A DNA stretch of 20,000 nucleotides from an uncultured virus (IMG/VR IMGVR_UViG_3300037808_001064) (IMGVR_UViG_3300037808_001064); one strand, 5' to 3'; counted from the stretch's first letter, positions 823 to 15,904 are shown. Notes: generated by a model not told the origin, from the sequence alone. A program made the numbers and translations.

Positions 823-2577
823 CTATTGAATACTTTTCATCAGTGATCGGATCTCGCTCAGGCCCGTGAATATACCACTATCAGGAGAAAACATTCCACT
901 GCAAACGCCAAGTAGTTCTCCAGCAGGCGTGAAGAGCCCCCCTCCGGAGCGACCAGTGGCGTGCCGGCCGGAACAGACGAGAGAAGATGGGCCAGTGAAC
1001 TTATTGATACTCAGGAGCTTACAGTCTGAGCGGATCTGGGGCCCAGCGTGATCAAATCCGTACGAAACGAGCGGAGATCCTGTCGGCGGAACCTCATTGG
1101 CCAATGGAGCATACGCGATAAATGTGGTGTTCCCGGTCACTTTAAGAATCGCCAAGTCTGTTGGTGTCGGCAAGAGGGCCACCATCTCAGCTGGGTATTC
1201 TGTCCCGGTGTTCGGGTCGTAGACTGACAGTGTTTTGTGTTTTCGGAACACATGAGCACAGGTCAGGATGTAGGCGACACCACCTTCTGACTTGACCACC
1301 GTCCCACTGCCAGCGTCACCGTTGCCATCTGAGGACCTGGCATGAACTCGGACGGACACCATAGACGCACTCATGGTCTTTTGACTGTCTTGTGGATTCA
1401 GGTCTCGCTCAATGCCTGCAAGAAGGCGATTGAATACCGACGCTACCCTGTACCCCCACTGGTATTTAGGAGACGCGACTGTGGGCCCATCATGCAAGAT
1501 GTGGTATTCACCGTCACGAAGAACGCCCACCTGGAATGCTGGGTACAACCCCACCCCGTTTTTTCTGCCTTCGCGTGTTCCGCGGTCAATCACTTCGTAT
1601 GTCATTTTTGATCGCTCATTTGCCGTCCACTGCCGGCATGCAGCACACCCATCGAAGTGGTAGAACAGAAGGACAGGCGTCTCGTGAGCCTTTACCTCTT
1701 CGGTCAAGACAGGGGCAGACACGGTCATCGGCACGAACGTGTGGAACGATCTCTTGACTGGCTGGTCAGCTGGGTCGTCCGTCCATAGCCACACCTCGTC
1801 GTGCTCCACCATGTCGAGCCCTTCGATCTCGTGATAAGGCGACACCACCTTGGATAGGCCGGCGAACTTGCCCGCGACCATCAGCTCTGTCAGCAGCTCC
1901 GGGTACAAGTAGGCCAGACCGATCGAGATGTGATACTTGCTGGGGTCAACGTCCCGAACGTCTCGATGCTGGACGATGACGGATCCAGCTGCGATCCGGC
2001 CGGCGACGACGGCCTCCTGAACATGCTGTCTGGCCTTCTTGACCATGTCGATGTCGATCTCGAACCCATAGGCACGCTTGGCACCGGACTCAACGGCGCG
2101 AATCGACCACTCAGCGATACCACAACCAAACTCACCGACTGTGTCATAAGGGCCGATGTCGGCAATGCGGATGCCGGTGTCCATATGGCCGGAGGGTGTG
2201 GGGGATTGGCCGACTTCTTTGAGTGCGGCCTTTATCGCGTCAGCTGCCTTCACTGTGGCAGAATGCCGGGCTGCTGACTTCATGGACTTCCCCTGTGACA
2301 TGTACTCAGCCTTCCATCCATAAATGTTGTCACACATGTTGCAGGGACAGCGAACGAACCTCTTCCGCCGGCCGACACCTTTGTTTCTCCCACGACTGTA
2401 CGACTCAAGGTCGATGTTGGCCGTCTTGTTGTTCTCCGGCCACTTCTGCATCCGAGCAATGCGACCATCCGGTGTCCGAATCTGACTCCGTGAGTGTGGC
2501 ATGGTGACAAGAATAAGGCCCAAGATTAACGTGAGCCAGATTCCAAGTGCGACTATGCTCCGTTTTCTCTCGTTCAT
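823..2577 (-). CDS. Membrane-anchored or exported multidomain protein: class I SAM methyltransferase (FAM173-like) + thioredoxin-like CxxC domain + trypsin-like serine protease
   Basis: N-terminal hydrophobic stretch IVALGIWLTLILGLILVTM. MTase motifs SPTP...GEFGCG...YGFEID...AYLYPEL...VVS. Thioredoxin-like PVLLFYHFDGCAAC. Trypsin motifs GSGTVV, ILTCAHV (His), DLAIL (Asp), GRSGGGLF (Ser). Start placed at ATG 2577 (TAATG overlap with the holin stop); the ORF track start is 2592. Confidence 0.8.
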   Translation of the reverse strand: MNERKRSIVALGIWLTLILGLILVTMPHSRSQIRTPDGRIARMQKWPENNKTANIDLESYSRGRNKGVGRRKRFVRCPCNMCDNIYGWKAEYMSQGKSMKSAARHSATVKAADAIKAALKEVGQSPTPSGHMDTGIRIADIGPYDTVGEFGCGIAEWSIRAVESGAKRAYGFEIDIDMVKKARQHVQEAVVAGRIAAGSVIVQHRDVRDVDPSKYHISIGLAYLYPELLTELMVAGKFAGLSKVVSPYHEIEGLDMVEHDEVWLWTDDPADQPVKRSFHTFVPMTVSAPVLTEEVKAHETPVLLFYHFDGCAACRQWTANERSKMTYEVIDRGTREGRKNGVGLYPAFQVGVLRDGEYHILHDGPTVASPKYQWGYRVASVFNRLLAGIERDLNPQDSQKTMSASMVSVRVHARSSDGNGDAGSGTVVKSEGGVAYILTCAHVFRKHKTLSVYDPNTGTEYPAEMVALLPTPTDLAILKVTGNTTFIAYAPLANEVPPTGSPLVSYGFDHAGPQIRSDCKLLSINKFTGPSSLVCSGRHATGRSGGGLFTPAGELLGVCSGMFSPDSGIFTGLSEIRSLMKSIQ

Positions 2578-2783
2578 TACTCTCGTTTCCATGTGTGAGT
2601 TTTCGCGGCTTCTTTACCGTTGTCCGCAATCCCTTGCCCAATCAGGTAAGCCATTATTGTGTTGACGATGTTAGTGGCCTGATCCTCAGTGAGACCGAGG
2701 CCATCCGAAAAGATGATGATAAGGGCAGCGGTCAAGGCCGCGTAGAACTTCTTTGAGTTGAAAAGCTGCTTGAAGATGTTCAT
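2577..2783 (-). CDS. Putative holin
   Basis: 68 aa with two hydrophobic segments (SKKFYAALTAALIIIF; IVNTIMAYLIGQGIAD) and a charged C-terminus (KEAAKTHTWKRE). Resembles the SRKFW..-type small phage holins. Confidence 0.65.
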   Translation of the reverse strand: MNIFKQLFNSKKFYAALTAALIIIFSDGLGLTEDQATNIVNTIMAYLIGQGIADNGKEAAKTHTWKRE

Positions 2784-2785
2784 CG

Positions 2786-3682
2786 TTACTGCTCCGTGTA
2801 TTTGCCTTTACCAGTCCACACAGCGTGCCGGTTCCCGATTGTCATTGTCCCGTTCACATCGAACAGGCCGTCATCATCCGGTGGCGTCGGTTCATCCGGA
2901 TCCGGTGGTGTCAGACCCAACGGTGGGCCATAGTATTTCTGAGTCCGCTTCTTGTCTGCCGGCTGCAGTCGCGTGACGTTCGGGTTCATGAACGGACGCA
3001 TGATAGACGTGCCGGAGTTCGCGTGTGAGAAGCCCATCGTGTGGCCGGTCTCATGAATAATGGTCCCGATCAAATAATCGATCGACCAGTTCCGCCTGTC
3101 GTATTTTTGCCAGTGGGAATGTACTCGCCGGCTGCCGTTCGACAATAGTGCAATTGCCAGTGTGCTTCCGCCGAGTCTCTCCGACCACGTCGGGACATGT
3201 GCGGCATCGTAGTCGTCGATCATCACCAGGTTCACACCACATGTGTCGTTCCAGTTCTGCAGAGCAGTGTCCCACGCCTTCTTTGTGTCCTCCTCATCGA
3301 GGCCCTGAAGAGCGCGAAAGCGAAGTGCGAAGGTGACTGGGGTTTCCGGGTTCGGCCATGTGCGAGTGCCGTTGGAGATGTTCAGCTCTTCGGACTCATT
3401 ACTGGCCAGGTAGTCCGGGCAGTCGCAGACCCTCTCGTGTCCGTGAGAGTTCCTGCGAAACATCAGACTGTCGACGGTGAACCGGCCAAACTCCTGGTCC
3501 TCCTCCAGCTCAGCCGTCATCTGATACGAGCTGACTGCCCGTTTGAATATCCGCGAGTTGATGTCCAACTCTTGCACCTTAAACCACGATGATCTTCCAT
3601 CGTACTCAGAGTGAAAGTGCCCGAGCTTGTACAGCTCTCGCCTGGATACCTCTTCTTTCGGGGTCCATACGTGCGCCACCAT
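2786..3682 (-). CDS. Matrixin-like (M10A) zinc metallopeptidase with PG-binding-like prodomain and cysteine switch
   Basis: Metzincin motif HETGHTMGFSH (HExxHxxGxxH) and Met-turn SIMRP. RVCDCPD resembles the MMP cysteine switch PRCGxPD. N-terminal LYKLGHF...AVSSYQ...L..D..FG..T resembles PG_binding_1. Pro/Asp-rich linker before a short C-terminal tail. No signal peptide visible. Confidence 0.85.
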   Translation of the reverse strand: MVAHVWTPKEEVSRRELYKLGHFHSEYDGRSSWFKVQELDINSRIFKRAVSSYQMTAELEEDQEFGRFTVDSLMFRRNSHGHERVCDCPDYLASNESEELNISNGTRTWPNPETPVTFALRFRALQGLDEEDTKKAWDTALQNWNDTCGVNLVMIDDYDAAHVPTWSERLGGSTLAIALLSNGSRRVHSHWQKYDRRNWSIDYLIGTIIHETGHTMGFSHANSGTSIMRPFMNPNVTRLQPADKKRTQKYYGPPLGLTPPDPDEPTPPDDDGLFDVNGTMTIGNRHAVWTGKGKYTEQ

Positions 3683-4239
3683 CAGTCACTCTCCGACAAT
3701 AACGCACGAGCCTCATCGACGGCCGCAACCAAAGCATCGCGGTCCTGATCCCCCTTCGCTGCCTCCATTGCAGCAACAAACGGTTTCAGCCATGGATCCC
3801 ACTGTGGTGACGCGAACTCTTCCAGCACAACCTCCAAAGTTGAATTGACCGAGTTGTAGGCGACTCCGAATGTCATCAGCGAAGGTGGGATCTTCAACGA
3901 GAACTTCAGGGTCTCGACCTGCTGATGAAACTTCGCCAGCTGGCCGATGTCCTCCATCGCGTCCTGAACAGCGCCGATCCGGGATGATCCGTCCGGGGGA
4001 GTGGGCCCTTCTGGATCACCCGAACCGACTGGCTTTCCATGCAGGTCAACGGCCTGCAGAGGAGAAAGCGTGAGTTTGCCGTTTGCTTTGGTAATCTGAA
4101 CGTAGTAGACGCCATCAGCGAAGGCGTCCGCACAGATTATGAGCGGGGCGGTTTTCGATACGGGCTCTTGTAATGCAGTGCCGGCAGGTATGCCCGATAA
4201 ACCTGCGAGAGCCAAGACGGTAAGGAAGTAGTACTTCAC
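3682..4239 (-). CDS. Hypothetical exported protein
   Basis: 185 aa, signal-peptide-like N-terminus MKYYFLTVLALAGLSG, Pro/Gly linker (DPEGPTPPDG), helical-looking C-terminus. Coupled to neighbours by GTGA and TGATG overlaps. Confidence 0.65.
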   Translation of the reverse strand: MKYYFLTVLALAGLSGIPAGTALQEPVSKTAPLIICADAFADGVYYVQITKANGKLTLSPLQAVDLHGKPVGSGDPEGPTPPDGSSRIGAVQDAMEDIGQLAKFHQQVETLKFSLKIPPSLMTFGVAYNSVNSTLEVVLEEFASPQWDPWLKPFVAAMEAAKGDQDRDALVAAVDEARALLSESD

Positions 4240-4718
4240 TGGTCCTCCCCCCGCAGCTCCTCGATCAATCCCTCCATTGCGGCAGCCGATGTGGCAGCAC
4301 CAGAATCAAGAGATGCCTGATAGGACCGGCGAGCGTAGGAGTCACGCAGGATGTTCCGCTCACGGCGAGAAATCTTGCCGCCAGTGGGGTTCTTCTTGCG
4401 GGTGATGTTCTGCTTGGTTTTCAATTTCGAAATCCGCCACAACTGCTCTTTGTCGTCAGCAGTGGGATTTCGCGACCGATCAGAAAGCCGGCTGGAATCC
4501 TGAAGACCGCCGGAGCTGTCCTTGCACATGGCAATCATCTGCTTGATGCCAGTGAAAATTGAGATCAAGGTGCCCGGGTCAAAGAACTCCTCTGATATTC
4601 CGTTACCGGGCGTCTGCCCAACGAAATTGTTCAGCATTACCGCAGTACTGGTTTGATCGTGACTCATCTCTACCTCCGCTTCAAAAAGGTGGGTTTCATC
4701 GAACCACAATTCTTTCAT
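4236..4718 (-). CDS. Hypothetical phage protein
   Basis: 160-aa ORF coupled by TAATG to the upstream gene. An alternative start (MSHDQ, ATG at 4667) has a strong GGAGG SD. Confidence 0.65.
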   Translation of the reverse strand: MKELWFDETHLFEAEVEMSHDQTSTAVMLNNFVGQTPGNGISEEFFDPGTLISIFTGIKQMIAMCKDSSGGLQDSSRLSDRSRNPTADDKEQLWRISKLKTKQNITRKKNPTGGKISRRERNILRDSYARRSYQASLDSGAATSAAAMEGLIEELRGEDQ

Positions 4719-5002
4719 TACAGATCCCCATACGTCAAGTCTTCAGCCATGGCGATCTGCTCACGAATCTCAGATTTCCGTGCCGCGGCCTTCGCCCACC
4801 GAAGCTCCAACCGCAACTTCGCAATCAGAGTGGGGGTCACCCGATCCCATACTCCTGAAGGAATCGTCAGCCGCTCAGTGGCGATCTCAACATGGTCAGC
4901 GAACATATCACCCATGTCGTGGCTGATTAGGGGTTTTGGTGAGGTTCGGATGTGCATTTGGTGGGTTTCTGACCGAGGGGACAGCTTTTTGTACCGGGGC
5001 AC
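4718..5002 (-). CDS. Hypothetical phage protein
   Basis: 94-aa ORF, GTG start with GGGAG SD, TAATG-coupled to the next gene. Confidence 0.55.
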   Translation of the reverse strand: MPRYKKLSPRSETHQMHIRTSPKPLISHDMGDMFADHVEIATERLTIPSGVWDRVTPTLIAKLRLELRWAKAAARKSEIREQIAMAEDLTYGDL

Positions 5003-5051
5003 AAATGGCTGCTCCCAGTTAAACCGTTTGCATCAAAGGAGTTAAGGCTGT

Positions 5052-5324
5052 GGGGACAAGGGGACAACATTCTGCCGAGAAAAACATATATAGGGAGAAA
5101 AAAAACAAACAGTAAATGTTAAAATAGGCAAGGAGGCTCTTTGCTTTTATTTCTCTTCACGTATCTCTCCATTTATCAATGTCCCATTGTCCCCTATTAT
5201 TATTATTATCTTTTTTGTCTTCTTCTTCTTCTTCTTTAAGAAGGAGAATCGCTGGGTTTTTGAAACAGTCGGACAAAATTTGACTCGGGGACAAACAGGG
5301 GACAAAGCCGGGACAGTGGGACAA
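5052..5324. other. Putative replication origin (GGGACA iterons around an AT-rich core)
   Basis: Non-coding region directly downstream of the primase-helicase. (G)GGGACA(A) copies at 5052, 5060, 5287, 5298, 5310, 5318, a GGACAA at 5271, and inverted copies at 5180 and 5187. These flank A/T tracts and (TAT)n/(CTT)n runs. Confidence 0.7.
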
Positions 5325-5326
5325 AA

Positions 5327-8194
5327 CTAGACATTGTCATACTCACTTCCCACCTCCGGAGCCTGCTGGGGCATCACATCTGGTGCTGCGAAGTCACCTT
5401 GGTAGTCAGCAGAGCCCATCAGGTCGGCCGGCACAAACACGCCTCTTACCGAAGCGCCGCTGAATTTTGACTTTCCCGTGAACGCCCCGGGCAGCCTCTT
5501 GAGCATCGCCTTGATGTTCTGCCGCTCATACTGAGTGCCCTTCAGGAGCCCGCGGACGATGTATGAGGTTTTGCTGGTGCTGAAGAACACGTAGGCACCG
5601 TCGACCGCCTCTTTGTTCTCCATGCCTTCTCTCCACTCCTTAATCGTGTGCATCTGGCTGTACGGATACCGCTTGATGCCAATCCTCGCCAGCTCGCTCT
5701 CAGGAGACGGTGAGAGCCTGTCATCCTCAGCCTGCAGCAATTCACCCACAGACTTCCTGTGCCCTCCTGCGAGCATCACGAGGCTGTTTGAGATGGCACT
5801 CAGCACCAGCTCCTGCTCAGTCTCCTCTTCTTCCACTGTGTTCCTCATCAGCTCCTCCATGAGATCCTTATGCGACTTGATGGCCTCCTCGTCGGTCTGA
5901 CCGGTTATGGCCCCGTACACAGCGGATGGGAGGGCATAGGACTCTGACTGACGCGTGTAATTGCCCTCCAGGCTGCTGGTGATGATCTCAGCCAGCTCTT
6001 TGATCCGCTTCCAGCATCGCATGATGACAGCGATCGACGCGTTCCTGAGTCGACTGATCACTTCCGGATCCTTCGGGATGTGGAAACGTGGCAGTCCTTT
6101 GCGGCTGCCCATCTCGAAGGTGATGTACCGGTTCACTTCCGTCTGCTTGTCCATCTTCATCTCAACAGCGGAAAACCACGGCATCAGCTCGTAACTGGAC
6201 TCTACAGAGCCCTGCGCAGAGTTCGACCGGTAAGACTTCCCGAACGCCCCAGCCCGGTTCGAGGCCATCAGCATGTCGAGAATGGCGGTTCTGTGGGGCG
6301 AGTCCTCGAATTCGTCGTGCATAAAGACCCTGCTCGACCGGCCGAGAGTATTCCGCACCGCGGGCTCCGTCGTGTTTGTCGTGGCGAACGCCATTTTGCC
6401 GAAGTAATCCGCCAGAAAGTCCATCAGGATGGTTTTCCCGGACGAGCTCTCACCAGTGATCGCAATCCATGGCCGCCAGTCCCAGAGCGATTGCCCCCAT
6501 GATGCCATGGCCAGACAGGTGACAATCTGAGCGCCCAGCGGATGCTTGTGGCTGTCCCATCTGCCCAGAATCCCGGCCAATTCATTCATGTGTGCTGTTC
6601 GCCACTCAGGAGACTGGGCCGAGTCCAGATATTCGTACAGCAGGTCTTTATCGTACCACTCCTCTGCCTGGCTTCCGAAGTCCACAATCTTGTCGTCGAC
6701 CATCGGCGCCGTGTAGCTCTGGACGCCGCCATTCACGGCCACCCACTCACCGGAGCCCACCGCGAAGATGCGACCACCGCTTTCCCAGAGTCCCACACCC
6801 ACGGTATTCGTCCGGGACAGCTCTTTCCCACCGGCTTCAGTGGCGATGGCACATCGCACATCATTCGGATCAATCATGTCTTCCTGCTCCTTATCTGACT
6901 TACTGGGATTGGCGACTTTCTCAGCGGCGGCATCGTTGATGTATATCAGCATCTTGTTGTAGCTGAACTTATCAATGTCCTTGATGGTGAACTTGGCACA
7001 CTCGGCCGCGTTAAACACCTCGATGTGACCCTCCTTGGAATGTCCCAGGACAATCAGGTCCAGTGATCGGAGAGTGAGCTGGTGATCAGTGAGACCGCTC
7101 TCCGTGTACATTTCGGTCTCAACCGCAGACTTCACACAGAACTCTGTTTCCTTGACGAGCCTCATGAGGTCGTCGTACGTGTTGCCCTCATCGAACCAGT
7201 CGCGGAGATCCTTGCCCTTCTTTGGGGCGATGTCGTATGGCAGCTGAAGGTTCCGGACGTTCTCAGCTGTGCGCAGCATGCAGTTTGTCCAGCGGATGGC
7301 TCCACCGTTCTTGCTGGACGACCCACCGAACTGGCCGGGCTCATCTGCGTCGTGGATGATGCAGATGTTCTTGCCCTTACACATGTCAGCAAACGCATGT
7401 GGAGTTCGGTCAGCATCACAGCCATCTGAGTTGGTCACCACAAGATGGACGTTCTTAAACTCTTCGGGAATCTCCTCCTGCAGCCTCAGCATGTCACTGA
7501 TGCCTTCCACCTTGTAGATGATGGTGGCTTCCTTCCAGTGAGTCAGAGCATGCTTGTTCATGATCCCGGCTTCACCGAGAGACATGCTGGTCAGCATCTG
7601 AGCCTGGGCAGCGTTGCCCCGGTAATGCTCAATTTTGCCACCGCCAGACTCCTGAATGACACAACCCTTCATGGGTGCATCGAATCCCAGGGCCGGGTCG
7701 TAGATGGGGAACGAGACGACCGACTGTGACCTGTTGGTTCCAGCCTGAGTTCCGCCAACCATCTGCAGGGTTTCGTCGGAGATCTTGAGCTTCTTACAGA
7801 GACCCATCGTGATCGCTGGCAGCCACGGCATGTACCGCAGCTTCGACCTGAAGTTGTCACCGCGACTACTCTTCGGCTTCTTACTGAGAACCTTCGCCTT
7901 CTTCGCCAGGTCATCCCGGCACTCGGTGTAGTTGCCGTACGGGCCATACTGGGCACCGAGGCTAAAAAAGGGATACGACGGGCCCGGACCCTCATCGTTG
8001 TAGTAGCCGGAGATGCGGTTCACAGCACAGGACGGCTTGTTGTCAGCTCGGTCCATCGCGCGGCAGACCATCCATCCCTTTGCTGTTACCGATCCGGTAA
8101 ACTCAAGCCCCCACTCCCTGCAGGTCGCTTCGATGTCGATGGACTCGATGATTAACTGGTTGTACTCGTCCCACTTTTCTTTTTCTGAGATCAC
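5327..8194 (-). CDS. Primase-helicase fusion (degenerate ZBD + TOPRIM + P-loop NTPase), replication initiator
   Basis: 955 aa. TOPRIM motifs KVEGISD, IIHDADEPG, KGKDLRDW. Walker A ITGESSSGKT and Walker B VFMHDEFE. GTG start preceded by a strong AGGAGG SD. Confidence 0.85.
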   Translation of the reverse strand: MISEKEKWDEYNQLIIESIDIEATCREWGLEFTGSVTAKGWMVCRAMDRADNKPSCAVNRISGYYNDEGPGPSYPFFSLGAQYGPYGNYTECRDDLAKKAKVLSKKPKSSRGDNFRSKLRYMPWLPAITMGLCKKLKISDETLQMVGGTQAGTNRSQSVVSFPIYDPALGFDAPMKGCVIQESGGGKIEHYRGNAAQAQMLTSMSLGEAGIMNKHALTHWKEATIIYKVEGISDMLRLQEEIPEEFKNVHLVVTNSDGCDADRTPHAFADMCKGKNICIIHDADEPGQFGGSSSKNGGAIRWTNCMLRTAENVRNLQLPYDIAPKKGKDLRDWFDEGNTYDDLMRLVKETEFCVKSAVETEMYTESGLTDHQLTLRSLDLIVLGHSKEGHIEVFNAAECAKFTIKDIDKFSYNKMLIYINDAAAEKVANPSKSDKEQEDMIDPNDVRCAIATEAGGKELSRTNTVGVGLWESGGRIFAVGSGEWVAVNGGVQSYTAPMVDDKIVDFGSQAEEWYDKDLLYEYLDSAQSPEWRTAHMNELAGILGRWDSHKHPLGAQIVTCLAMASWGQSLWDWRPWIAITGESSSGKTILMDFLADYFGKMAFATTNTTEPAVRNTLGRSSRVFMHDEFEDSPHRTAILDMLMASNRAGAFGKSYRSNSAQGSVESSYELMPWFSAVEMKMDKQTEVNRYITFEMGSRKGLPRFHIPKDPEVISRLRNASIAVIMRCWKRIKELAEIITSSLEGNYTRQSESYALPSAVYGAITGQTDEEAIKSHKDLMEELMRNTVEEEETEQELVLSAISNSLVMLAGGHRKSVGELLQAEDDRLSPSPESELARIGIKRYPYSQMHTIKEWREGMENKEAVDGAYVFFSTSKTSYIVRGLLKGTQYERQNIKAMLKRLPGAFTGKSKFSGASVRGVFVPADLMGSADYQGDFAAPDVMPQQAPEVGSEYDNV

Positions 8195-8209
8195 TGTTCA
8201 CCTCCTGTG

Positions 8210-8722
8210 TTAAATATCTTCAAGTGCATGTTCACGCCAAAATCGATCAAGAATGCGGAACGTAACCAGCTCCGCGGATCTTTTGCTGGGACAAAGCCAC
8301 CAATGCACATTGGGATATTTATCCATCTGCCACGAGATCATCGATCTCGGTATTGTCTTCGGATCCAGCTTGCTCCTCTTACACCCTTCCATGATTCGGC
8401 CGAGGTCAGCCTCAACAACCACCCATCCGCTTTCCAGTTCGTTCAGGCGGCACAGTTGCTTTTCAAATCGCGTCCGGTCAGCACCGACGCAGTTGTAAAG
8501 ATCCTCCATCGACTTGCGTTCAACAGCAACGCGATGCTGAATGCCCTCAATGGAGTAGTCGCCGGTTTTCAGTCCCAGGCGTTTAGTGCGCAGCACTATT
8601 GTTCCACGAGTCTTGTCATCCTTTGTGTCGGCAGGAATGTCCATGAAGTCAAAAGTACTCTGCTCTCTGGTGTCGATAATCAACACGTACGGCCGGGTGA
8701 CGAACTCCGTTTCCTTCGGCAT
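8210..8722 (-). CDS. ERCC4 (XPF/Mus81-type) structure-specific endonuclease
   Basis: Diagnostic motifs IIDTREQ, GDY, VAVERKSMEDL (GDxnERKx3D) and RFEKQLCRL...VVEAD. Confidence 0.9.
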   Translation of the reverse strand: MPKETEFVTRPYVLIIDTREQSTFDFMDIPADTKDDKTRGTIVLRTKRLGLKTGDYSIEGIQHRVAVERKSMEDLYNCVGADRTRFEKQLCRLNELESGWVVVEADLGRIMEGCKRSKLDPKTIPRSMISWQMDKYPNVHWWLCPSKRSAELVTFRILDRFWREHALEDI

Positions 8723-10014
8723 TAAATTGCTCCTGTGTAAAGCTCACTCAGAAAAGTCTTTCGGTCATCAAGTTTGCTCTTCAGAATCTGACGATTCAGG
8801 ACACCCAGCTGGCCAATACTCAAGAGTATTTTTTTGGGGCGACTGAACCCGGTGTACACGAGGTTGCGATCGTTAAGGCCACAGTCATCAACCAAATAGA
8901 TTGCAACAGGCCAGCCTGAGCCCTGCGTTGAGTGACAGGTCAGTGCGTAGCCGAGGACCACCTCTTTCTCCCAGCCAGGCTTTGTGTATTTCACAACACC
9001 GCCAGCATGTGAGACGTAGATGGCCTTGCCGAATGAGTCCAGGTTGCAAACGATTCCATCTTCGCCGTTGGCAACGTAGGTCGACCCATGATCCTTCTGC
9101 ATCCAATCGCCATCGAGGGTGTGCCATGTCGCACGATGCTTATTCTTTTTGCAGATGACTTTGTCCCCAAGGCGAAACGGACAGTTTGGTGTCTGCTGCC
9201 CATCCGGATTCAGTAGCTCCTGAAGTCGATGATTGACCGTCTTTCGGTCTAACTCTCCGGCGAGGTTTCTGGTGACAATCACCTGAACGTCCTTGATGGG
9301 ATTGAACCCACGAGCCTTCATCCGCTCCAACATCAAGTCCAGCGTCTCAAGAATTTGATGGCCTCGGAATCTCTCCAGGTGCTTATAGTTTTCAGGACCA
9401 TGGGGCCCAGCATCCGGGTCGAGATCTAACTTTGGGGAAGGCTCAATCTTTTCCCCCATGCGAATGCACTTGCAAACATGGGCGATCCGGCCGGCATAAC
9501 GATGGACCTCGGTGAGGTGGGCATGAGGGAACATCTGCGACTCAATCATGTCCTTGAGTGGCTTACCCTTCCCCACGGGGCTCAGCTGGTAATCGTCACC
9601 GATCATCACAACCTGACAGCCTGGCCGAATGGCGGCGAAGAGCCATGACCCCTCAGCGGCAGCGATCATTGATGTCTCGTCTACAAACACTCGATCCACG
9701 GGCAGGTGGCTTTTGTGGTTGTATTCGAACTCCCATCCCAGCCCGTCGTACCCAACCCGAGTTGGGATCAGACCGGAGTGAATTGTCTTTGCTCTCAAGT
9801 CGACTCCGCACTCACTGAATGCTTCCATCATCCTTTGAGCTGCCTTGCCAGTGGGCGCAAAACAAAACGTGGAAATTTCTGGTGTCCGCTTAACCAATTC
9901 AGCGAGTAATGTTGTCTTTCCTGTTCCCCCGCCCCCCGTCAGCAAGGAGAACCTCGAATTCTGAATTAGTGTGACTGCTTTCTCTTGGCTTTCTGTGAGT
10001 GTTAGCACTGGCAT
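8722..10014 (-). CDS. recD2: RecD2-like SF1B helicase, C-terminal motor half
   Basis: LTESQEKAV Q-motif, Walker A LTGGGGTGKTT, FAPTGKAA, TIHS, VDETSM, IGDDYQLSPVGKG, HLTEVHR, FRLGDKVI, NGEDG, LGYALTCHSTQGSGW, RNLVYTGFSR. Confidence 0.88.
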   Translation of the reverse strand: MPVLTLTESQEKAVTLIQNSRFSLLTGGGGTGKTTLLAELVKRTPEISTFCFAPTGKAAQRMMEAFSECGVDLRAKTIHSGLIPTRVGYDGLGWEFEYNHKSHLPVDRVFVDETSMIAAAEGSWLFAAIRPGCQVVMIGDDYQLSPVGKGKPLKDMIESQMFPHAHLTEVHRYAGRIAHVCKCIRMGEKIEPSPKLDLDPDAGPHGPENYKHLERFRGHQILETLDLMLERMKARGFNPIKDVQVIVTRNLAGELDRKTVNHRLQELLNPDGQQTPNCPFRLGDKVICKKNKHRATWHTLDGDWMQKDHGSTYVANGEDGIVCNLDSFGKAIYVSHAGGVVKYTKPGWEKEVVLGYALTCHSTQGSGWPVAIYLVDDCGLNDRNLVYTGFSRPKKILLSIGQLGVLNRQILKSKLDDRKTFLSELYTGAI

Positions 10015-10915
10015 CCCTTAGTTTCGTTGTGTAGTTGAAAATTAGTCGCTCATTGATGGCATCGTCCTTCATCGCCAGCCATTTTTCGCCGGCCACAGTC
10101 TTCACGTTTATGAGCTTGGCCCGGCGTGCCAGCTCAATCGCTTTCTTTGGTTTGATGTCAGAGCCAACAAGCCGCCTCAGTTCCTTGATGGCCTCCTTAA
10201 CGCTGAGCCATGTGCTCCCATCAGCCTGCTGAAGCAGATACCACAAGCAGACTGCCTGACGTTTCAGTTTGCGGGGATTGTGGCCACGAGACTTATAAAG
10301 CTCATCGCATCGAAGGAACCCAGCGGACGGATACTTTCTGATCAGCATCGTGAATGGGTCGTCCGCTATTCTGTCAAAGGCACAGACACCAAAATCGTCA
10401 ATGGCACACTGGACGACGTTCGAACCGAACCCCCTGCCTTTTAGCAGCTGGTTCAGCTCAATTGCGGTGTCCTCAAAAGCCTCAGCCTGAGTGACTATGT
10501 CGCTACAAACCTTAGCCTGCTCTGTGGAGATCCCTGTGATTTCACACACCGTCTCCAGGTCTCCCTTGAGTGTCGGCAGCGTTCTCTCAGGGCCAACGCG
10601 GGCAATGATCTTGTTCAGGCCAGCTGCCCCAATGCCGCACTTGTTGAAGATTTTTTTTTCAAGGTAGGCGACGAGCCCCGCAGCGGTCTTTGGCTTCTGC
10701 GCGACGAAGTTCAGAAACTTGAACTGCTTTCCGTGGTTCTCGTGGTCCTCCCAGTATCCCGAAAACCGGTACTCGACCGAGGGGATGAACGTGTCCCTCC
10801 CGGCCGCACCAACAATGACGGTTCCGTCCATCAGCATGCCGACACAGTATGTGCCTTCGTCGTTGGCCCATCGGCACTTCTGAAAGACGCCCGAAAGCTC
10901 TGTGGTCTTCCCCAT
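9899..10915 (-). CDS. recD2: RecD2-like helicase, N-terminal half (OB-fold + HhH domains) encoded as a separate ORF
   Basis: G.WEDHENHGKQFKF, AYLEKKIFNKCGIG (HhH), EITGIS, DRIADDPFTMLI....AGFLRCD and QQADGSTWL match the RecD2 N-terminal region. Overlaps the motor-half ORF by 116 nt in a different frame. Confidence 0.8.
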   Translation of the reverse strand: MGKTTELSGVFQKCRWANDEGTYCVGMLMDGTVIVGAAGRDTFIPSVEYRFSGYWEDHENHGKQFKFLNFVAQKPKTAAGLVAYLEKKIFNKCGIGAAGLNKIIARVGPERTLPTLKGDLETVCEITGISTEQAKVCSDIVTQAEAFEDTAIELNQLLKGRGFGSNVVQCAIDDFGVCAFDRIADDPFTMLIRKYPSAGFLRCDELYKSRGHNPRKLKRQAVCLWYLLQQADGSTWLSVKEAIKELRRLVGSDIKPKKAIELARRAKLINVKTVAGEKWLAMKDDAINERLIFNYTTKLRDASANTHRKPRESSHTNSEFEVLLADGGRGNRKDNITR

Positions 10916-11814
10916 CAGGACAACCTCAGAACAGGCTGGACCCTCTTGAACAGTTCCATCTCAGACCAGCCATCAGAGGCGACGTAACGGGCCAGTTCTT
11001 CCCACTGAGCCCCTTCGATCATCTCCTGAACGTGAGAGCCGTCAACGTCCCCGGCCGGAGGCGTGATGCCATACTGAGGCAACAGAGACTTCAGTTTCTG
11101 CATGTTGGCTATGGTGCCGAACATCTTCAGACAAATGTCGGCCGTGTCTTTTGCGTACCGACTGTTGTCTACTGGTTTTTGCGGAGTGACGCCCAGTTTG
11201 ATGGCTCGGTGAATCAGACAGGGGTCATCGTACGAAGCAGTGTTGTAGCCCACTCTCAGCCGGCCAGTGGCAACCATCCGGAACCAGGCGTCGACCAACT
11301 GCTTTTCATGTTCGCGATCCTCGGCCAGCCACACCTTTGGAACAGGATCGTTGAAGAAGCAGATCGACATGGCGACGATACGGCAGGTCCACGGACACTT
11401 CGACAGGTTTTTCCATGCCTGCAGATCTTCGTTGCCGTTTTCACAGTACTTCTTGAGTACAGTGTTGACGCCTTTGCGGTTCTTGCCGGCGATCTCTGCG
11501 TCCCAGACCTGCTGGGCATCCTCGGCATGAACACCGCTGTTGATGAAACTCTTTGCTGTGGATTCACTCTTGAGAATGTCGGCCATGTTTAACGGCTGCT
11601 TGTCATACACAGGCACGTCAGGCTTCGGGGCATCCGGATAGGTCTCAACGTCGTATGCCCAGGCACAACCACCTTCTGGCGGCTCCCAGTTGGAATCCAT
11701 GACTTCGAACTTGAAGTCATCTTTAGGTTGCTGCTCGACCTGCTCAGGTTCTTCTGCGTGTATCGAATCTCGGTCAATACCGGTCGTGCTCACTGTCTGA
11801 TCGAATAGTCCCAC
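10915..11814 (-). CDS. DnaQ-like/RNase H-fold 3'-5' exonuclease (DEDDy)
   Basis: ExoI WAYDVET, ExoII VGYNTASYDDP, ExoIII YVASD. Start reassigned to GTG at 11814 (GGGGA SD upstream), because the ORF track's 5' extension to 11928 runs through a terminator. Confidence 0.8.
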   Translation of the reverse strand: MGLFDQTVSTTGIDRDSIHAEEPEQVEQQPKDDFKFEVMDSNWEPPEGGCAWAYDVETYPDAPKPDVPVYDKQPLNMADILKSESTAKSFINSGVHAEDAQQVWDAEIAGKNRKGVNTVLKKYCENGNEDLQAWKNLSKCPWTCRIVAMSICFFNDPVPKVWLAEDREHEKQLVDAWFRMVATGRLRVGYNTASYDDPCLIHRAIKLGVTPQKPVDNSRYAKDTADICLKMFGTIANMQKLKSLLPQYGITPPAGDVDGSHVQEMIEGAQWEELARYVASDGWSEMELFKRVQPVLRLS

Positions 11815-11839
11815 AATTACATCCCCGTTCTGTGATGAC

Positions 11840-11874
11840 AAAAAAAGAGCCAGGCCTTGCCGTGAAGACCTGGC
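11840..11874 (-). terminator. Intrinsic (Rho-independent) terminator between the SSB and exonuclease genes
   Basis: Minus strand GCCAGGTCTT-CACGGC-AAGGCCTGGC followed by TCTTTTTTT: a 10-bp stem (one G-U pair) plus U-tract. Confidence 0.75.
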
Positions 11875-11975
11875 GTGTGAAATTGATCCCCGTTCTGGCC
11901 ACACAAGGCGGGGACACCCTTGATCCAATACGACTCAGTCACGAACGCGAAAACTGTCCGCGTGGCAGACTTTGG

Positions 11976-12584
11976 CTACACGTCGTCCGCGTCGTCACCT
12001 GCATCCACAGGAGTCGACATCAGAACGGTGTTAGGATCCTTCGGCACATCTTCAACCTTGGCGTGGTTACATGGCCACACGTTGTTGTTATAGACGATAT
12101 AGAACGGCTTATCCTTGTCGTTCTTGTTCGGACGAGTAGACACCTGGCAGATGGCATTAGTGCCTCTCAGGCGTTCGTACATTTCCTGAGTGATAGTGAA
12201 CGACTCCTGACCAAAGGCCTCGTCACCGATCACGCCAAAGCCGAACAGCAGGCAGACAATGGCCTTCCGGTCCTTGTCTTCCAGCGGCTCCATGCCTTCG
12301 CTGAAATCCTTCCAGTTGCATGGAGTCATCAGGCGGATGGCGTGACGCATACTTTTCCCGATCTCAGAATCGTGCTCTCCCGCGAGAACCTTCATGCTAA
12401 GAATAACTTCCGGAATGATTGTCTTGTCACCCTCTGATTCCAGGCTGAACTTCACGTCTTCTACCTGGAAGTGGAACAGGCCCTTTTTGCAAACGCCAAG
12501 ACTGGCGTCGTTCACAGAATCCTCGGTGACAGTACTCGTGTCGACGGTTGAGTTCTCTGTGGAGAATGGATCGTTTTCACTCAT
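11976..12584 (-). CDS. Putative phage single-stranded DNA-binding protein (DUF669-like)
   Basis: KGLFHFQVEDV...VILSMKVLAGEH...GK pattern and an acidic C-terminal tail (PVDAGDDADDV). Adjacent to a Sak4-like ATPase, the usual context. Confidence 0.6.
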   Translation of the reverse strand: MSENDPFSTENSTVDTSTVTEDSVNDASLGVCKKGLFHFQVEDVKFSLESEGDKTIIPEVILSMKVLAGEHDSEIGKSMRHAIRLMTPCNWKDFSEGMEPLEDKDRKAIVCLLFGFGVIGDEAFGQESFTITQEMYERLRGTNAICQVSTRPNKNDKDKPFYIVYNNNVWPCNHAKVEDVPKDPNTVLMSTPVDAGDDADDV

Positions 12585-14317: not shown

Positions 14318-14521
14318 TTATCCGCTAGAATCTCGCTCCGGGAGAACGCACACAGGACCAGCTGGTCTGGCATCCAATAATTCTCCTCTCATAATCACGG
14401 CATCCTCTGGTGCCTCAATGCCAATCTTCACCTTGCCCGCGTGGACAGCAAGTACCCTGAAGGTGACGTTAAGGTCGGGAATAACAATTGTTTCCTCACG
14501 CTTTCTGCTCAGAACTAACAT
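14318..14521 (-). CDS. csrA: Carbon storage regulator CsrA/RsmA-family RNA-binding protein
   Basis: MLVLSRKREETIVI....VTFRVLAV..GKVKIGIEAPEDAVIMRGEL aligns by eye with CsrA (MLILTRRVGE...VRIGVNAPKEVSVHREEI). L2, L4, R6 and the R44-equivalent are retained. Confidence 0.9.
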   Translation of the reverse strand: MLVLSRKREETIVIPDLNVTFRVLAVHAGKVKIGIEAPEDAVIMRGELLDARPAGPVCVLPERDSSG

Positions 14522-14534
14522 CCCTGTGTTCCTT

Positions 14535-14711
14535 TTAAGAGTCTCGTTTCTTTTTGAAGGAAGTCACCGAACCAGAGTAGATGCTCCGGACCCTGCGAAA
14601 CAGCTTGGACTTCAGCGTTCCATCACTCACCATGCGATCGACAGTCCTAATCGACAGCCTTAGCGTCCGAGCGGCTTCCTGTCGGGTTACGAACGTCTTT
14701 TTGCGAGGCAT
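14535..14711 (-). CDS. Excisionase/Xis-like (HTH_17) small DNA-binding protein
   Basis: 58 aa, absent from the ORF track: MPRKKTFVTRQEAARTLRLSIRTVDRMVSDGTLKSKLFRRVRSIYSGSVTSFKKKRDS. The T..EAA..L..S.RTV.R....G.L signature is typical of HTH_17. Confidence 0.8.
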   Translation of the reverse strand: MPRKKTFVTRQEAARTLRLSIRTVDRMVSDGTLKSKLFRRVRSIYSGSVTSFKKKRDS

Positions 14712-14872: not shown

Positions 14873-15904
14873 CTATGTTGCGGTGTTAATCGGTCCTTCG
14901 GAAACGATCGTCTCGCCCTTCGGACGGTATGTGATGTCGCCACCGTTCGCAGAGGATCGCAAGCTCTTCAAGGCGTCGGCGTAGGTGGCGGATTTGACCT
15001 TTTTGCTGGCCGCAGACTTCACGGTGATTGTCACGTCGCCGGCCGACTCGTCATCAACAACCAGAGTTGCATCAGACGCCGTGCCCCATGTGGTCCCCTG
15101 AACAGTCAATAGTCCAGTCGTTTTATCCACAGCAATTACGGCAGCTGAATCGGCGTCATTCCGATTGTGTTTCAACATGAAAATCAGGTTCGTGTTATTC
15201 GCTAAGGTTCCGAGTCCTGTGATGACAATCTGCCACTGATCACCTTCCGTTACGTTGATCACATTGACCGACAGTGGAGAAGCGACATCTTCAGATACCG
15301 CCTGAACACCGGCAACGATGGATGCGATGTTAGCGGGGCTTAATCCACCAGCATTGTCCGCGATTGCTTCCAAAGAATCTGTAAGCTCACTGTACGCACC
15401 AGCACCAGCACCAGAGGTTTTGATCTCTGCCAAAGCTGTAGCGTCCGCAACTTGTTTACCCGCCATCAAACCCAACCACTCAGCGAGTATAGTTATTCCA
15501 GCGAATACTGAAGCTGCTGGAGGAACCACAGTGTTCGCTCCGACCGCAACCGTAGCCCCATCATACCCCACCAGCGGATGTGGAACGCCTTCAATGACCC
15601 CTGCAGTGTAACTGCCCTTGACCGACACTGCTCCGAACTGGGACGCAACGGCAGCATCAGGAGCATCCACTGTGTAAAGGTTGCCCGACCCTACCTGCCG
15701 AATAGCCCCATCAGCGTGTGCCGTATCGTCAGCCGCTTTATCACTGAGTGAAGAGATCGCCACTGACGATCCGCCTGCACGATAGACCGACAATGCCAGA
15801 CCAGCTTCAGCAGCGAGCAGATTAACCTTTGCTGTGCCGTCGGTGTCGAATGCTCTGAAGAACATAATTGGATCGGACGAACCGACTAAAATCGCATGGC
15901 TCAT
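14873..15904 (-). CDS. Phage structural (tail/baseplate-associated) protein
   Basis: 343 aa, Ala/Gly/Thr/Val-rich, ATGA-coupled to the LamG gene. The C-terminal beta-rich region is loosely BppU-like. Function inferred from context. Confidence 0.55.
   Translation of the reverse strand: MSHAILVGSSDPIMFFRAFDTDGTAKVNLLAAEAGLALSVYRAGGSSVAISSLSDKAADDTAHADGAIRQVGSGNLYTVDAPDAAVASQFGAVSVKGSYTAGVIEGVPHPLVGYDGATVAVGANTVVPPAASVFAGITILAEWLGLMAGKQVADATALAEIKTSGAGAGAYSELTDSLEAIADNAGGLSPANIASIVAGVQAVSEDVASPLSVNVINVTEGDQWQIVITGLGTLANNTNLIFMLKHNRNDADSAAVIAVDKTTGLLTVQGTTWGTASDATLVVDDESAGDVTITVKSAASKKVKSATYADALKSLRSSANGGDITYRPKGETIVSEGPINTAT

What the first reader, a model, noticed from the sequence alone, without database searches (positions are those of the whole stretch)
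823..4239. Candidate protease-based lysis cassette: holin between two proteases, no classical endolysin in view
Seen: a tightly coupled run of exported protein, matrixin-like Zn protease, holin-like gene and membrane-anchored trypsin-like protease fusion. No lysozyme, amidase, CHAP, M15 or M23 motif was recognised in the window. Established: holin-adjacent, signal-less enzymes are normally endolysins released through the holin, and MMP-type zymogens are activated by proteolytic or redox removal of the cysteine switch. Inference: the signal-less pro-matrixin exits through the holin and is activated by the trypsin/thioredoxin partner to attack a protein-rich envelope. That would be an unusual lysis or egress system.
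Basis: partly seen in the sequence, partly recalled or inferred. Interest (0 to 1): 0.85.

Follow-up and report, generated by a model that had tools for sequence, protein, structure and literature searches.

The report
Leaderless proMMP enzyme beside phage holin
An uncultured tailed phage carries a tightly packed gene set in which a complete matrix-metalloprotease-type proenzyme without an export signal sits next to a holin and two exported helper proteins, so it may burst its host with a latent protease instead of the usual cell-wall enzyme, though this is not yet proven.

Summary
On the minus strand, 823-4239 encodes four translationally coupled genes. They are an exported 185-aa protein, a 298-aa leaderless proMMP-type zymogen, a 68-aa holin-like protein (phrog_9987, E 1.8e-8), and a 584-aa exported fusion. 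The zymogen model has pLDDT 91.9, matches proMMP-2/-9 at Z about 20, and carries the switch RVCDCPD, HETGHTMGFSH and a Met-turn. The fusion joins an aKMT-like methyltransferase, a thioredoxin CxxC domain and a DegS-like protease.

The exported protein, proMMP and fusion stay together in all four distinct relatives with flanks. The holin lies between them in two of those four. The protease domain is present in only one of the four, whereas the thioredoxin CxxC is in all. A distant proMMP (28% identity) in a viral contig directly precedes an unrelated r1t-type holin (E 5e-16).

The family is large: 666 clusters at E<=1e-3. Only 6 of 154 members have a hydrophobic N-terminus. No canonical endolysin was found in anything I could scan, but 30-45 kb of this phage's genome was out of reach.

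Best reading (0.5): a holin-released, cysteine-switch-latent lytic enzyme. Trypsin-mediated activation is not a conserved feature. The substrate is unknown.

The parts
5003..5326 (.). Intergenic region upstream of the operon, with at least 8 copies of GGGGACAA/TTGTCCCC in both orientations. Likely a regulatory site; this is inference.
4718..5002 (-). First gene of the coupled run, 94 aa, no family hit. Conserved in L005.
4236..4718 (-). Second gene, 160 aa, basic, no family hit. Conserved in L005 and weakly in L009.
3682..4239 (-). p185: exported or anchored 185-aa protein. It has an N-terminal hydrophobic segment (residues 4-23), a small beta domain, a Pro/Gly linker and a helical C-domain with invariant ASPxWxPW. 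No known family.
2786..3682 (-). Leaderless proMMP-type zymogen, 298 aa.
3398..3682 (-). Pro-domain, residues 1-95. Helical, PG_binding_1-like, and aligns to the pro-domains of proMMP-2/-9/-3.
3413..3433 (-). Cysteine-switch motif RVCDCPD (residues 84-90). C86 is invariant in 58 family members. C88 is a subfamily feature.
3023..3055 (-). Zinc site HETGHTMGFSH (residues 210-220).
2993..3007 (-). Met-turn SIMRP (M228).
2789..2914 (-). Pro-rich linker (residues 257-272) and a C-terminal beta-hairpin (residues 273-298).
2577..2783 (-). Holin-like protein, 68 aa. It has one strong hydrophobic helix (residues 13-25 core), one weaker helix (39-53), a conserved GQGIADNGKEAAK motif and a charged C-terminus.
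823..2577 (-). Exported multidomain fusion, 584 aa counted from the TAATG-coupled start.
2485..2577 (-). Signal peptide or anchor of the fusion (residues 1-31).
2332..2349 (-). Invariant CxCxMC motif (residues 77-82).
1774..2205 (-). aKMT-like class I methyltransferase domain, with motif GEFGCGIA and an acidic YGFEID.
1399..1692 (-). Thioredoxin-fold domain with CAAC (GCAACRQW at 1627-1650).
826..1365 (-). DegS/HtrA-like serine protease domain without PDZ. Triad motifs are TCAHV, DLAILKV and GRSGGG.

Best explanation
This is a lysis module of an uncultured tailed phage. The place normally held by a muralytic endolysin is taken by a leaderless, MMP-type metalloprotease zymogen.

Proposed sequence of events:
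1. The zymogen builds up in the reducing cytoplasm. Its pro-domain cysteine (C86, in RVCDCPD) caps the catalytic zinc.
2. The 68-aa holin opens the inner membrane at the end of infection and lets the zymogen into the periplasm.
3. There the switch is released, most likely by thiol oxidation or exchange. The invariant CxxC thioredoxin domain of the exported fusion protein probably helps. In the lineages that carry it, the DegS-like protease domain may also help.
4. The active enzyme cuts a load-bearing envelope component.

What is shown: the gene content, the zymogen architecture, the lack of a signal peptide, conserved synteny with two exported partners, and adjacency to holins of two unrelated families.

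What is inferred: release through the holin, redox activation, and the lytic role. The substrate is not known. It could be peptidoglycan peptides, wall-anchoring proteins or a protein layer.
For: Zymogen:
- PF00413 at E 8e-10.
- A profile of 9 orthologues hits MMP-12 at 1.1e-10 and karilysin at 1.5e-8 in the PDB.
- The AF2 model has pLDDT 91.9.
- Foldseek's top hits are proMMP-9, -10 and -3 over about 260 columns.
- VIA gives Z 19-20.5 for proMMP-2/-9/-1/-3/-10 across model residues 1/8 to 252-256.
- C86, H210, E211, H214, G217, H220 and Y251 are invariant in 58 members, with consensus RRCxxPD.

Leaderless:
- The protein has no hydrophobic segment.
- Only 6 of 154 family members have a hydrophobic N-terminus, while 116 of 154 keep a C..[PAS][DE] switch before HExxH.

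Holin:
- phrog_9987 at E 1.8e-8 in the window and 1.1e-10 in L009.
- The nearest Atlas cluster is named 'Holin family protein', score 0.93.

Independent association:
- In viral contig L015 a 271-aa PG_binding_1+M10 protein (28% identity) is followed at once by a PF16945 r1t holin, E 5.2e-16, also phrog_443 at 7.5e-15.
- In L014 a 69-aa protein with two hydrophobic helices lies two genes upstream of the proMMP.

Synteny:
- p185-proMMP-fusion is kept in L004, L005, L008 and L009, and proMMP-fusion in L007.
- The module sits after the primase in the window but after the terminase in L009, so it moves as a unit.

Partners exported:
- Signal-peptide-like N-termini are seen in all fusion copies, and a lipobox-like LATGC in P0161.
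- The protease domain resembles the periplasmic proteases DegS, MarP and MamO.

No canonical endolysin was found in:
- 21 window ORFs.
- 46 ORFs of L004, L005, L007, L008 and L009, with a PHROG re-scan.
- 105 ORFs covering whole contigs G001 and G002.
- PF00959 had no match in G001-G005.
Against: - The whole genome of this phage (a 59-73 kb contig) could not be scanned. I saw about 27 kb of it, so an ordinary endolysin may lie elsewhere.
- G001 and G002 are only 57% and 53% complete.
- Many ORFs in all these phages have no family hit at all, so a missing Pfam or PHROG hit is weak evidence of absence.
- The holin is not adjacent in 2 of 5 lineages, L007 and L008.
- The holin call rests on one PHROG family and a language-model cluster name. 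Pfam and NCBIfam give nothing, and no source names its homologues holin.
- Metzincins are not known to cut peptidoglycan (my recall). Searches of the paper library found no M10 endolysin.
- More remote phage metzincins (L016-L021, L010, L001, L003) have no PHROG lysis-category neighbour among the 82 ORFs scanned within about 3.5 kb.
- L015 has a CxC switch but no thioredoxin fusion in its 45 kb. The redox partner is therefore not universal.
Confidence: 0.5

Rival explanations
1. Accessory lysis or envelope-conditioning module. The phage has a normal endolysin elsewhere. The proMMP and its exported partners only weaken or remodel the envelope so that lysis is faster or works under particular conditions, as proposed for the Listeria phage-derived Mtz-Tim pair.
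For: - In Listeria, a phage-origin metzincin and its neighbour sensitise cells to holin-lysin, and in prophages they sit downstream of holin-lysin (PMC8235301; abstract and passages read).
- About 30-45 kb of this phage was never seen.
- The exported partners would be in place before holin triggering.
Against: - Mtz has a Sec signal peptide, whereas this family is leaderless in 148 of 154 members.
- No canonical endolysin was found in any scanned relative. That includes the 45-kb contig, where the only lysis-category neighbour of the proMMP is a holin.
Confidence: 0.25
2. Not a lysis system. The exported methyltransferase-thioredoxin-protease protein, p185 and the metalloprotease instead modify host envelope or surface proteins during infection. 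Possible roles are receptor destruction, superinfection exclusion or takeover. On this reading the 68-aa protein is just a small membrane protein.
For: - The holin is missing from the module in L007 and L008.
- The remote phage metzincins sit in varied, non-lysis contexts.
- The holin assignment is by a single PHROG family.
Against: - A leaderless zymogen cannot reach the envelope without membrane disruption.
- Two unrelated holin families lie next to members of the same enzyme family.
Confidence: 0.15
3. Virion-associated entry enzymes. The protease is carried on or in the particle, encoded next to the tail-fibre and beta-helix tail genes, and digests a protein surface layer during adsorption.
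For: - The run continues without a break into a phrog_12296 tail-fibre-like gene (E 9.5e-12) and a tail protein with a weak beta-helix hit.
- The C-terminal linker plus hairpin could be a docking element.
Against: - The two partners carry signal peptides and would be exported, not packaged.
- In L009 the module follows the terminase gene and in L015 it sits among replication genes and a holin, not tail genes.
Confidence: 0.07

Closest known systems
Vertebrate proMMP pro-catalytic units (proMMP-9, -3, -10, -2, -1; e.g. 8k5v, 1slm, 9csx, 1eak)
   Same: - Three-helix pro-domain followed by an RxCxxPD-type cysteine switch.
- HExxHxxGxxH and a Met-turn.
- Fold match at Z 19-20.5 over pro-domain plus catalytic domain.
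   Different: - No signal peptide.
- The switch is RVCDCPD, with a second cysteine.
- The position of MMP-12's LAHA histidine is Ile or Trp in the family. That this histidine binds the structural zinc is my recall.
- There is no hemopexin domain, only a Pro-rich linker and one beta-hairpin.
- It is encoded by a phage next to a holin.
Karilysin of Tannerella forsythia (bacterial MMP-like enzyme; 2xs4, 4r3v) and its neighbour-encoded inhibitor potempin A (8b2q)
   Same: - A prokaryote-borne MMP-type catalytic domain (PDB profile E 1.5e-8; Z 18.9).
- An adjacent gene for an exported protein.
   Different: - Karilysin is a secreted enzyme with a short pro-peptide (my recall). The phage protein is leaderless and has a full PG_binding_1-like pro-domain.
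- No similarity of p185 to any solved chain was detected by sequence.
Canonical holin-endolysin cassettes of tailed phages (for example lambda S/R; recalled)
   Same: - A small membrane protein and a leaderless enzyme, translationally coupled in a late operon.
- The enzyme depends on the holin to reach the envelope (inferred here).
   Different: - The enzyme belongs to no known muralytic family.
- It is a zymogen.
- Two exported partners are part of the conserved unit.
Thiol-disulfide-activated SAR endolysin Lyz of phage P1
   Same: A precedent for a lysis enzyme held inactive through a cysteine and switched on by a thiol/disulfide change once it is in the periplasm.
   Different: - Lyz is a lysozyme with its own signal-anchor-release domain.
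- Here the latent enzyme is a metalloprotease with a zinc-capping cysteine, and a separate thioredoxin-fold partner is encoded.
Listeria Mtz-Tim, a phage-derived metzincin and TIMP-like lipoprotein (PMC8235301)
   Same: A phage-linked metzincin with a co-transcribed exported partner, tied to sensitivity to phage lysis.
   Different: - Mtz has a Sec signal peptide and no MMP-type pro-domain.
- It lies downstream of a normal holin-lysin pair and acts as an accessory.
- There is no thioredoxin, methyltransferase or serine-protease partner.

Membership tests
Matrixin / MMP-type zymogen (Pfam PF00413, MEROPS M10A) | Extended zinc motif HExxHxxGxxH | tested here: met
   HETGHTMGFSH at residues 210-220. 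H210, E211, H214, G217 and H220 are invariant in 58 members.
Matrixin / MMP-type zymogen (Pfam PF00413, MEROPS M10A) | Met-turn after the zinc motif | tested here: met
   SIMRP. M228 is conserved in at least 90% of 58 members.
Matrixin / MMP-type zymogen (Pfam PF00413, MEROPS M10A) | Pro-domain cysteine switch (PRCGxPD type) | tested here: met
   RVCDCPD. C86 is invariant and D90 is conserved in at least 90%. The family consensus is RRCxxPD. 116 of 154 members have C..[PAS][DE] before HExxH.
Matrixin / MMP-type zymogen (Pfam PF00413, MEROPS M10A) | Overall pro-domain plus catalytic fold | tested here: met
   The AF2 model has pLDDT 91.9. ProMMP-2/-9/-1/-3/-10 match at Z 19-20.5 over residues 1/8 to 252-256. 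PF01471 is detected in 18 of 58 relatives but not in the window protein itself.
Matrixin / MMP-type zymogen (Pfam PF00413, MEROPS M10A) | Structural zinc and calcium sites of the S-loop | tested here: inconclusive
   In the HMM alignment to MMP-12, the LAHA histidine aligns with LAIA, and the family consensus is LAWS. Which residues bind the metals is recalled, and no coordinates were inspected.
Matrixin / MMP-type zymogen (Pfam PF00413, MEROPS M10A) | Secretion signal (these are extracellular enzymes) | tested here: not met
   There is no hydrophobic N-terminus, and the ORF cannot be extended upstream. 148 of 154 family members lack one as well.
Phage endolysin (functional class) | Catalytic domain of a known peptidoglycan-hydrolase family | tested here: not met
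   Only PF00413 was found. There was no lysozyme, amidase, CHAP, M15, M23 or SLT hit, and 0 PHROG families.
Phage endolysin (functional class) | Leaderless enzyme gene adjacent to a holin gene | tested here: met
   Window, L004, L005 and L009 carry phrog_9987. L015 carries PF16945. This is not so in L007 and L008.
Phage endolysin (functional class) | Degrades the host wall and causes lysis | not testable with these tools
   This needs expression and enzymology.
Holin (functional class; phrog_9987) | Small protein with one or more transmembrane helices and a charged C-terminus | tested here: met
   68 aa. The hydrophobic core is residues 13-25, a second weaker helix is 39-53, and the C-terminus is DNGKEAAKTHTWKRE. 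Topology was not predicted with a dedicated tool.
Holin (functional class; phrog_9987) | Sequence membership of an annotated holin family | tested here: met
   phrog_9987 at E 1.8e-8 and 1.1e-10. Atlas cluster 'Holin family protein' scores 0.93. There is no Pfam or NCBIfam hit.
Holin (functional class; phrog_9987) | Timed hole formation in the inner membrane | not testable with these tools
   This needs expression assays.
HtrA/DegS-type S1 serine protease (PF13365) | His-Asp-Ser triad in the chymotrypsin fold | tested here: met
   PF13365 at E 5.5e-17. TCAHV, DLAILKV and GRSGGG are conserved between the window and L008. Foldseek matches DegS-deltaPDZ at about 1e-6, on a low-confidence part of the model.
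HtrA/DegS-type S1 serine protease (PF13365) | C-terminal PDZ domain | tested here: not met
   The protein ends about 20 residues after the protease domain, and there is no PDZ hit.
Thioredoxin fold (PF00085) | CxxC active site in a thioredoxin fold | tested here: met
   CxxC is in all 5 phage copies (CAAC, CPAC, CPGC, CGAC, CEPC). PF00085 hits the L009 copy at E 5e-8. The window copy gives no Pfam hit at E<=0.01. The model has a beta-alpha-beta pattern with pLDDT about 80.
aKMT-like class I SAM methyltransferase | Glycine-rich SAM-binding motif, an acidic residue after beta-2, and the Rossmann-like fold | tested here: met
   G151, C152, G153 and E173 are invariant. Foldseek matches 5bxy at 1.8e-9 (32% identity over 151 columns) and aKMT 5fad at 8.8e-8. 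The NCBIfam archaeal protein-lysine methyltransferase model hits at 7e-4 in the window and 2.4e-12 in P0161, all far below its cut-off.
Listeria Mtz-Tim type metzincin/inhibitor pair | Sec-secreted metzincin plus TIMP-like lipoprotein | tested here: not met
   The proMMP is leaderless. p185 has no conserved lipobox cysteine. Its fold was not predicted, so a TIMP-like fold remains untested.

The most novel reading that the evidence does not exclude
A protease-and-redox lysis system that replaces muralytic endolysis. A leaderless MMP-type zymogen is let out by a holin and fired by an exported thioredoxin (and sometimes DegS-like protease) partner. It then dismantles a protein-based or disulfide-cross-linked envelope layer of a marine host whose wall is not held together mainly by peptidoglycan. 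The wider family of at least 666 sequence clusters would then be a major, unrecognised class of phage lytic enzymes.
Probability: 0.2. Interest if true: 0.9.

Novelty: new variant of a known kind. Interest (0 to 1): 0.72.

Why it matters
Every well-studied tailed phage lyses its host with a peptidoglycan hydrolase. A large, leaderless MMP-type zymogen family sitting next to holins of two unrelated families would be a new enzyme class in the endolysin position. It would also bring a new latency principle, a zinc-capping cysteine instead of membrane tethering or disulfide caging.

It would explain why many uncultured marine phages have no recognisable endolysin. It gives a prokaryotic-virus context for the MMP zymogen architecture, which is usually seen as eukaryotic. 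It also offers a testable case of an exported thioredoxin/methyltransferase/protease helper.

The family is absent from PHROGs and from 50,697 deposited phage genomes. It therefore lies outside what cultured phages have shown.

Tried and rejected
- Whole-genome endolysin scan of this phage: not possible. No genome is held, and metagenome records cannot be searched whole.
- Nucleotide and protein searches of the region, the holin and the proMMP against deposited phages: no match.
- Single-protein scans of viral contigs with the proMMP and the primase: nothing.
- The 58-sequence alignment was too diverse for a contig scan. A 13-sequence alignment was used instead.
- Genome-contig scan for prophage copies: one weak hit only, L013, so no host clue.
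- Complex prediction of the proMMP with mature p185: no verdict, score 0.00 in two runs, controls not run. This says nothing either way.
- Atlas look-up of p185: no usable hit.
- PDB sequence searches of p185, p160, the 343-aa protein and the 333-aa tail protein: nothing below E 0.02.
- HMMs of the fusion, p185 and the holin found no copies in G001 or G002.
- The idea that the CxC form of the switch always goes with the thioredoxin partner was rejected. L015 has CxC without the partner.
- An RNA fold of the holin/fusion junction showed nothing beyond shuffles, z -0.41.
- The promoter and terminator scan gave counts near chance.
- The full-length fusion model is poor (pLDDT 63). Only its methyltransferase and thioredoxin parts are usable.
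- Prohead-maturation protease reading: rejected. The enzyme is a proMMP, and its partners carry export signals.

Full report
**What is in the sequence**

All large ORFs of the window lie on the minus strand. Reading in the direction of transcription, the order is:
- a D5-like primase, 5327-8194;
- a 324-nt spacer, 5003-5326;
- 94 aa, 4718-5002;
- 160 aa, 4236-4718;
- 185 aa, 3682-4239;
- 298 aa, 2786-3682;
- 68 aa, 2577-2783;
- 589 aa, 823-2592;
- an 84-aa tail-fibre-like gene, 560-814;
- a tail protein running off the window, 1-540.

The junctions are overlaps of 1-4 nt or gaps of 2-8 nt. The holin stop and the likely fusion start share TAATG, which puts the fusion start at 2577.

**The metalloprotease is a complete proMMP-type zymogen**

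Sequence evidence:
- Pfam gives PF00413 at E 8.3e-10.
- Nine close homologues, 43-85% identical and all about 300 aa, share invariant C86, C88, D90, H210, E211, H214, G217, H220 and M228.
- An exhaustive HMMER search of 1.84 billion representatives found 666 proteins at E<=1e-3 and 118 at <=1e-10. Most are 230-340 aa.
- In a 58-member alignment, C86 and the HExxHxxGxxH residues are invariant. The pro-domain consensus reads ...AVxxYQxFxxLxxDGxxGxxTxxxLxxRRCxxPD.
- 57 of the 58 hit PF00413 and 18 of the 58 hit PF01471 PG_binding_1.

Structural evidence:
- The AlphaFold2 model has mean pLDDT 91.9.
- Foldseek ranks proMMP-9, proMMP-10 and proMMP-3 first, over about 260 columns.
- The VIA second look gives Z 19-20.5 for proMMP-2/-9/-1/-3/-10 across model residues 1/8 to 252-256. 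That range covers pro-domain plus catalytic domain. Catalytic domains alone, including karilysin, reach Z about 18.5-19.

After the catalytic domain come a Pro-rich linker and one beta-hairpin.

**It has no export signal, and neither does the family**

The 298-aa ORF has no hydrophobic stretch, and it starts at the first start codon after an upstream stop. Of 154 family members that start with Met and keep the zinc motif:
- only 6 have a hydrophobic N-terminal 12-mer;
- 116 keep a C..[PAS][DE] motif upstream of HExxH;
- 35 of those have the CxC form.

For a protease whose relatives all act outside the cell, this is the feature that most needs explaining.

**The 68-aa protein is holin-like**

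- It hits phrog_9987 (lysis; holin) at E 1.8e-8, and the L009 orthologue hits at 1.1e-10.
- It has one strong and one weaker hydrophobic helix and a charged C-terminus.
- The nearest ESM-Atlas cluster is auto-named 'Holin family protein', score 0.93. A Phage_holin_1 cluster scores 0.86, which is a lead only.
- Against this, Pfam and NCBIfam find nothing, and no source names its homologues holin.

**The third enzyme gene is an exported multidomain protein**

Domain content:
- Pfam sees Trypsin_2 (E 5.5e-17) and a weak methyltransferase hit.
- NCBIfam places the protease near MamO, DegP, MarP and DegS, and the methyltransferase near archaeal protein-lysine methyltransferase. All of these are below the curated cut-offs.
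- The AF2 model is poor overall (pLDDT 63) but about 80 in the methyltransferase and thioredoxin parts.
- Foldseek matches a 155-aa SAH-bound methyltransferase, 5bxy (1.8e-9, 32% identity), the aKMT structure 5fad (8.8e-8), and DegS-deltaPDZ at about 1e-6.

The alignment of eight homologues shows:
- an invariant CxCxMC motif;
- an invariant GCG SAM-motif and acidic residues;
- a CxxC in all five phage copies. The L009 copy hits PF00085 at 5e-8.

N-termini:
- Each has a basic start and a hydrophobic core, followed by small residues just before a conserved QIR.
- One copy reads SLSASA/QIR.
- The remote homologue P0161 begins with a lipobox-like LATGC.

I read this as export to the periplasm. It is inference by eye, not a predictor result. 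A SAM-dependent methyltransferase outside the cytoplasm is odd and remains unexplained.

**Conservation of the arrangement**

The window matches metagenome locus L004 at 99.67% over 13,682 nt, so L004 counts as the same phage. Four further lineages have flanking DNA:

| Locus | proMMP identity | Arrangement |
|---|---|---|
| L005 | 78% | p185-proMMP-holin-fusion |
| L009 | 48% | p185-proMMP-107 aa ORF-holin-fusion |
| L008 | 55% | p185-proMMP-fusion, no holin between |
| L007 | 62%, short contig | proMMP-fusion, no holin between |

- The fusion keeps its protease domain only in the window/L004 copy and in L008 (677 aa). The L005, L007 and L009 copies end after the thioredoxin domain, at 396, 391 and 405 aa.
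- In L009 the module follows the terminase large subunit. In the window it follows the primase. It therefore travels as a unit.

**An independent link to lysis**

A scan of IMG/VR with a 13-sequence alignment found two full-length relatives.
- In L015 (45-kb contig G001), the 271-aa PG_binding_1+M10 protein carries the switch RFCSCPD. It is followed at once by an 88-aa ORF that hits PF16945 Phage_r1t_holin (5.2e-16) and phrog_443 holin (7.5e-15).
- That holin family is unrelated to phrog_9987.
- In L014 (switch PRCGRPD), a 69-aa protein with two hydrophobic helices lies two genes upstream, with an exported protein in between.

**Search for an ordinary endolysin**

None was found in any of the following:
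- 17 window ORFs against Pfam and PHROGs, plus 4 further window ORFs against PHROGs.
- 46 ORFs of L004 (7.2 kb beyond the window), L005, L007, L008 and L009 against Pfam, with 39 ORFs of those loci against PHROGs.
- 105 ORFs of 70 aa or more covering all of G001 and G002, against Pfam at 1e-4.
- PF00959 searched in six frames in G001-G005.
- 113 of 132 ORFs of 90 aa or more in the two complete genomes G005 and G004, at 1e-5. The 19 not scanned were 4 duplicates and 15 short ORFs.

Limits on this result:
- G001 and G002 are 57% and 53% complete.
- G004 and G005 carry only remote metzincins.
- Most ORFs in all these phages have no hit at all.
- The remaining 30-45 kb of this phage itself could not be read.

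**Results against a general link between phage metzincins and lysis**

Nine remoter loci (L016-L021 except L020, plus L010, L001 and L003) showed no PHROG lysis neighbour among the 82 ORFs scanned. Several of those metzincins have signal peptides or sit beside integrases or head genes. The association therefore holds for the leaderless full-length proMMP architecture, not for every phage metzincin.

**Mechanism**

The best-supported reading is a holin-dependent lytic enzyme kept latent by a cysteine switch, as set out in the best explanation.
- The conserved partner feature is the thioredoxin CxxC, present in 5 of 5 lineages. The serine protease is present in only 2 of 5. I therefore favour a redox trigger over proteolytic pro-domain removal.
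- L015 shows that the partner is not universal.
- A thiol-based switch for a lysis enzyme has a precedent in P1 Lyz (recalled).
- A phage-linked metzincin that promotes lysis has a precedent in Listeria Mtz-Tim (PMC8235301; abstract and passages read). Mtz, however, is Sec-secreted and accessory.

**Novelty**

Four searches of the paper library found no description of an M10 or MMP-type endolysin or of a holin-linked proMMP; supplements were not consulted. The family has no PHROG and no match in 50,697 deposited phage genomes. It is not independent evidence.

**Verdict**

This is a new variant of the holin-endolysin theme, with an unproven function. Interest is 0.72.

Noticed in passing
window 5003-5326: The spacer between the primase and the operon holds at least 8 copies of GGGGACAA/TTGTCCCC in both orientations, some as inverted pairs about 95-120 nt apart. 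It looks like a cluster of binding sites for a regulator, or an origin.
   Followed up: partly
window 1774-2205 (fusion residues 125-268): An aKMT-like, apparently SAM-competent methyltransferase domain sits in a protein whose N-terminus looks like an export signal. One remote homologue, P0161, even has a lipobox-like start. A methyltransferase outside the cytoplasm is unexplained.
   Followed up: partly
window 2789-2866 (proMMP residues 273-298): In the HMM alignment to full-length MMP-12 (3ba0), the C-terminal hairpin after the Pro-rich linker lines up with the first strands of the hemopexin domain. It may be a remnant or a forerunner of a blade, or it may be chance.
   Followed up: no
window 8722-10014 and 9899-10915: A RecD2-like helicase appears split into two overlapping ORFs. 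One carries the OB and HHH N-terminal part (338 aa) and the other the ATPase part (430 aa), with 116 nt of overlap. In the relative G001 the same domains form one 754-aa protein. This could be a frameshift, programmed or otherwise.
   Followed up: no
window 14318-14521: A 67-aa ORF hits a CsrA-like regulator PHROG (phrog_9500, E 2.9e-10). The neighbouring 58-aa ORF at 14535-14711 weakly hits excisionase-type DNA binders.
   Followed up: no
window 15901-19776: A 1291-aa protein with six Laminin_G_3 (concanavalin-like) repeats (E 1.3e-104) matches a virion structural PHROG. It is probably a large fibre or adhesin.
   Followed up: no
L009 5142-5465: A 107-aa ORF with a twin-arginine-like signal (MKRRRLLQALGLGAATSS...) is inserted between the proMMP and the holin in this relative only.
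   Followed up: no
L026 (G002) 7506-12281: The proMMP-bearing contig G002 also carries a DNA hypermodification set: 5-hmdU DNA kinase, amino-acid:DNA transferase, a radical-SAM-like protein and a PLP enzyme.
   Followed up: no
L001 / L027 6648-7286 (G005, complete 45-kb genome, 40% GC): A 212-aa mini-matrixin (PF00413, E 1.1e-21) has an RCIPD motif near its N-terminus and no PG_binding_1-type pro-domain. It is preceded by a 205-aa exported protein and a 156-aa protein with four hydrophobic helices. Only 3 of 51 scanned ORFs of this genome have any Pfam hit.
   Followed up: partly
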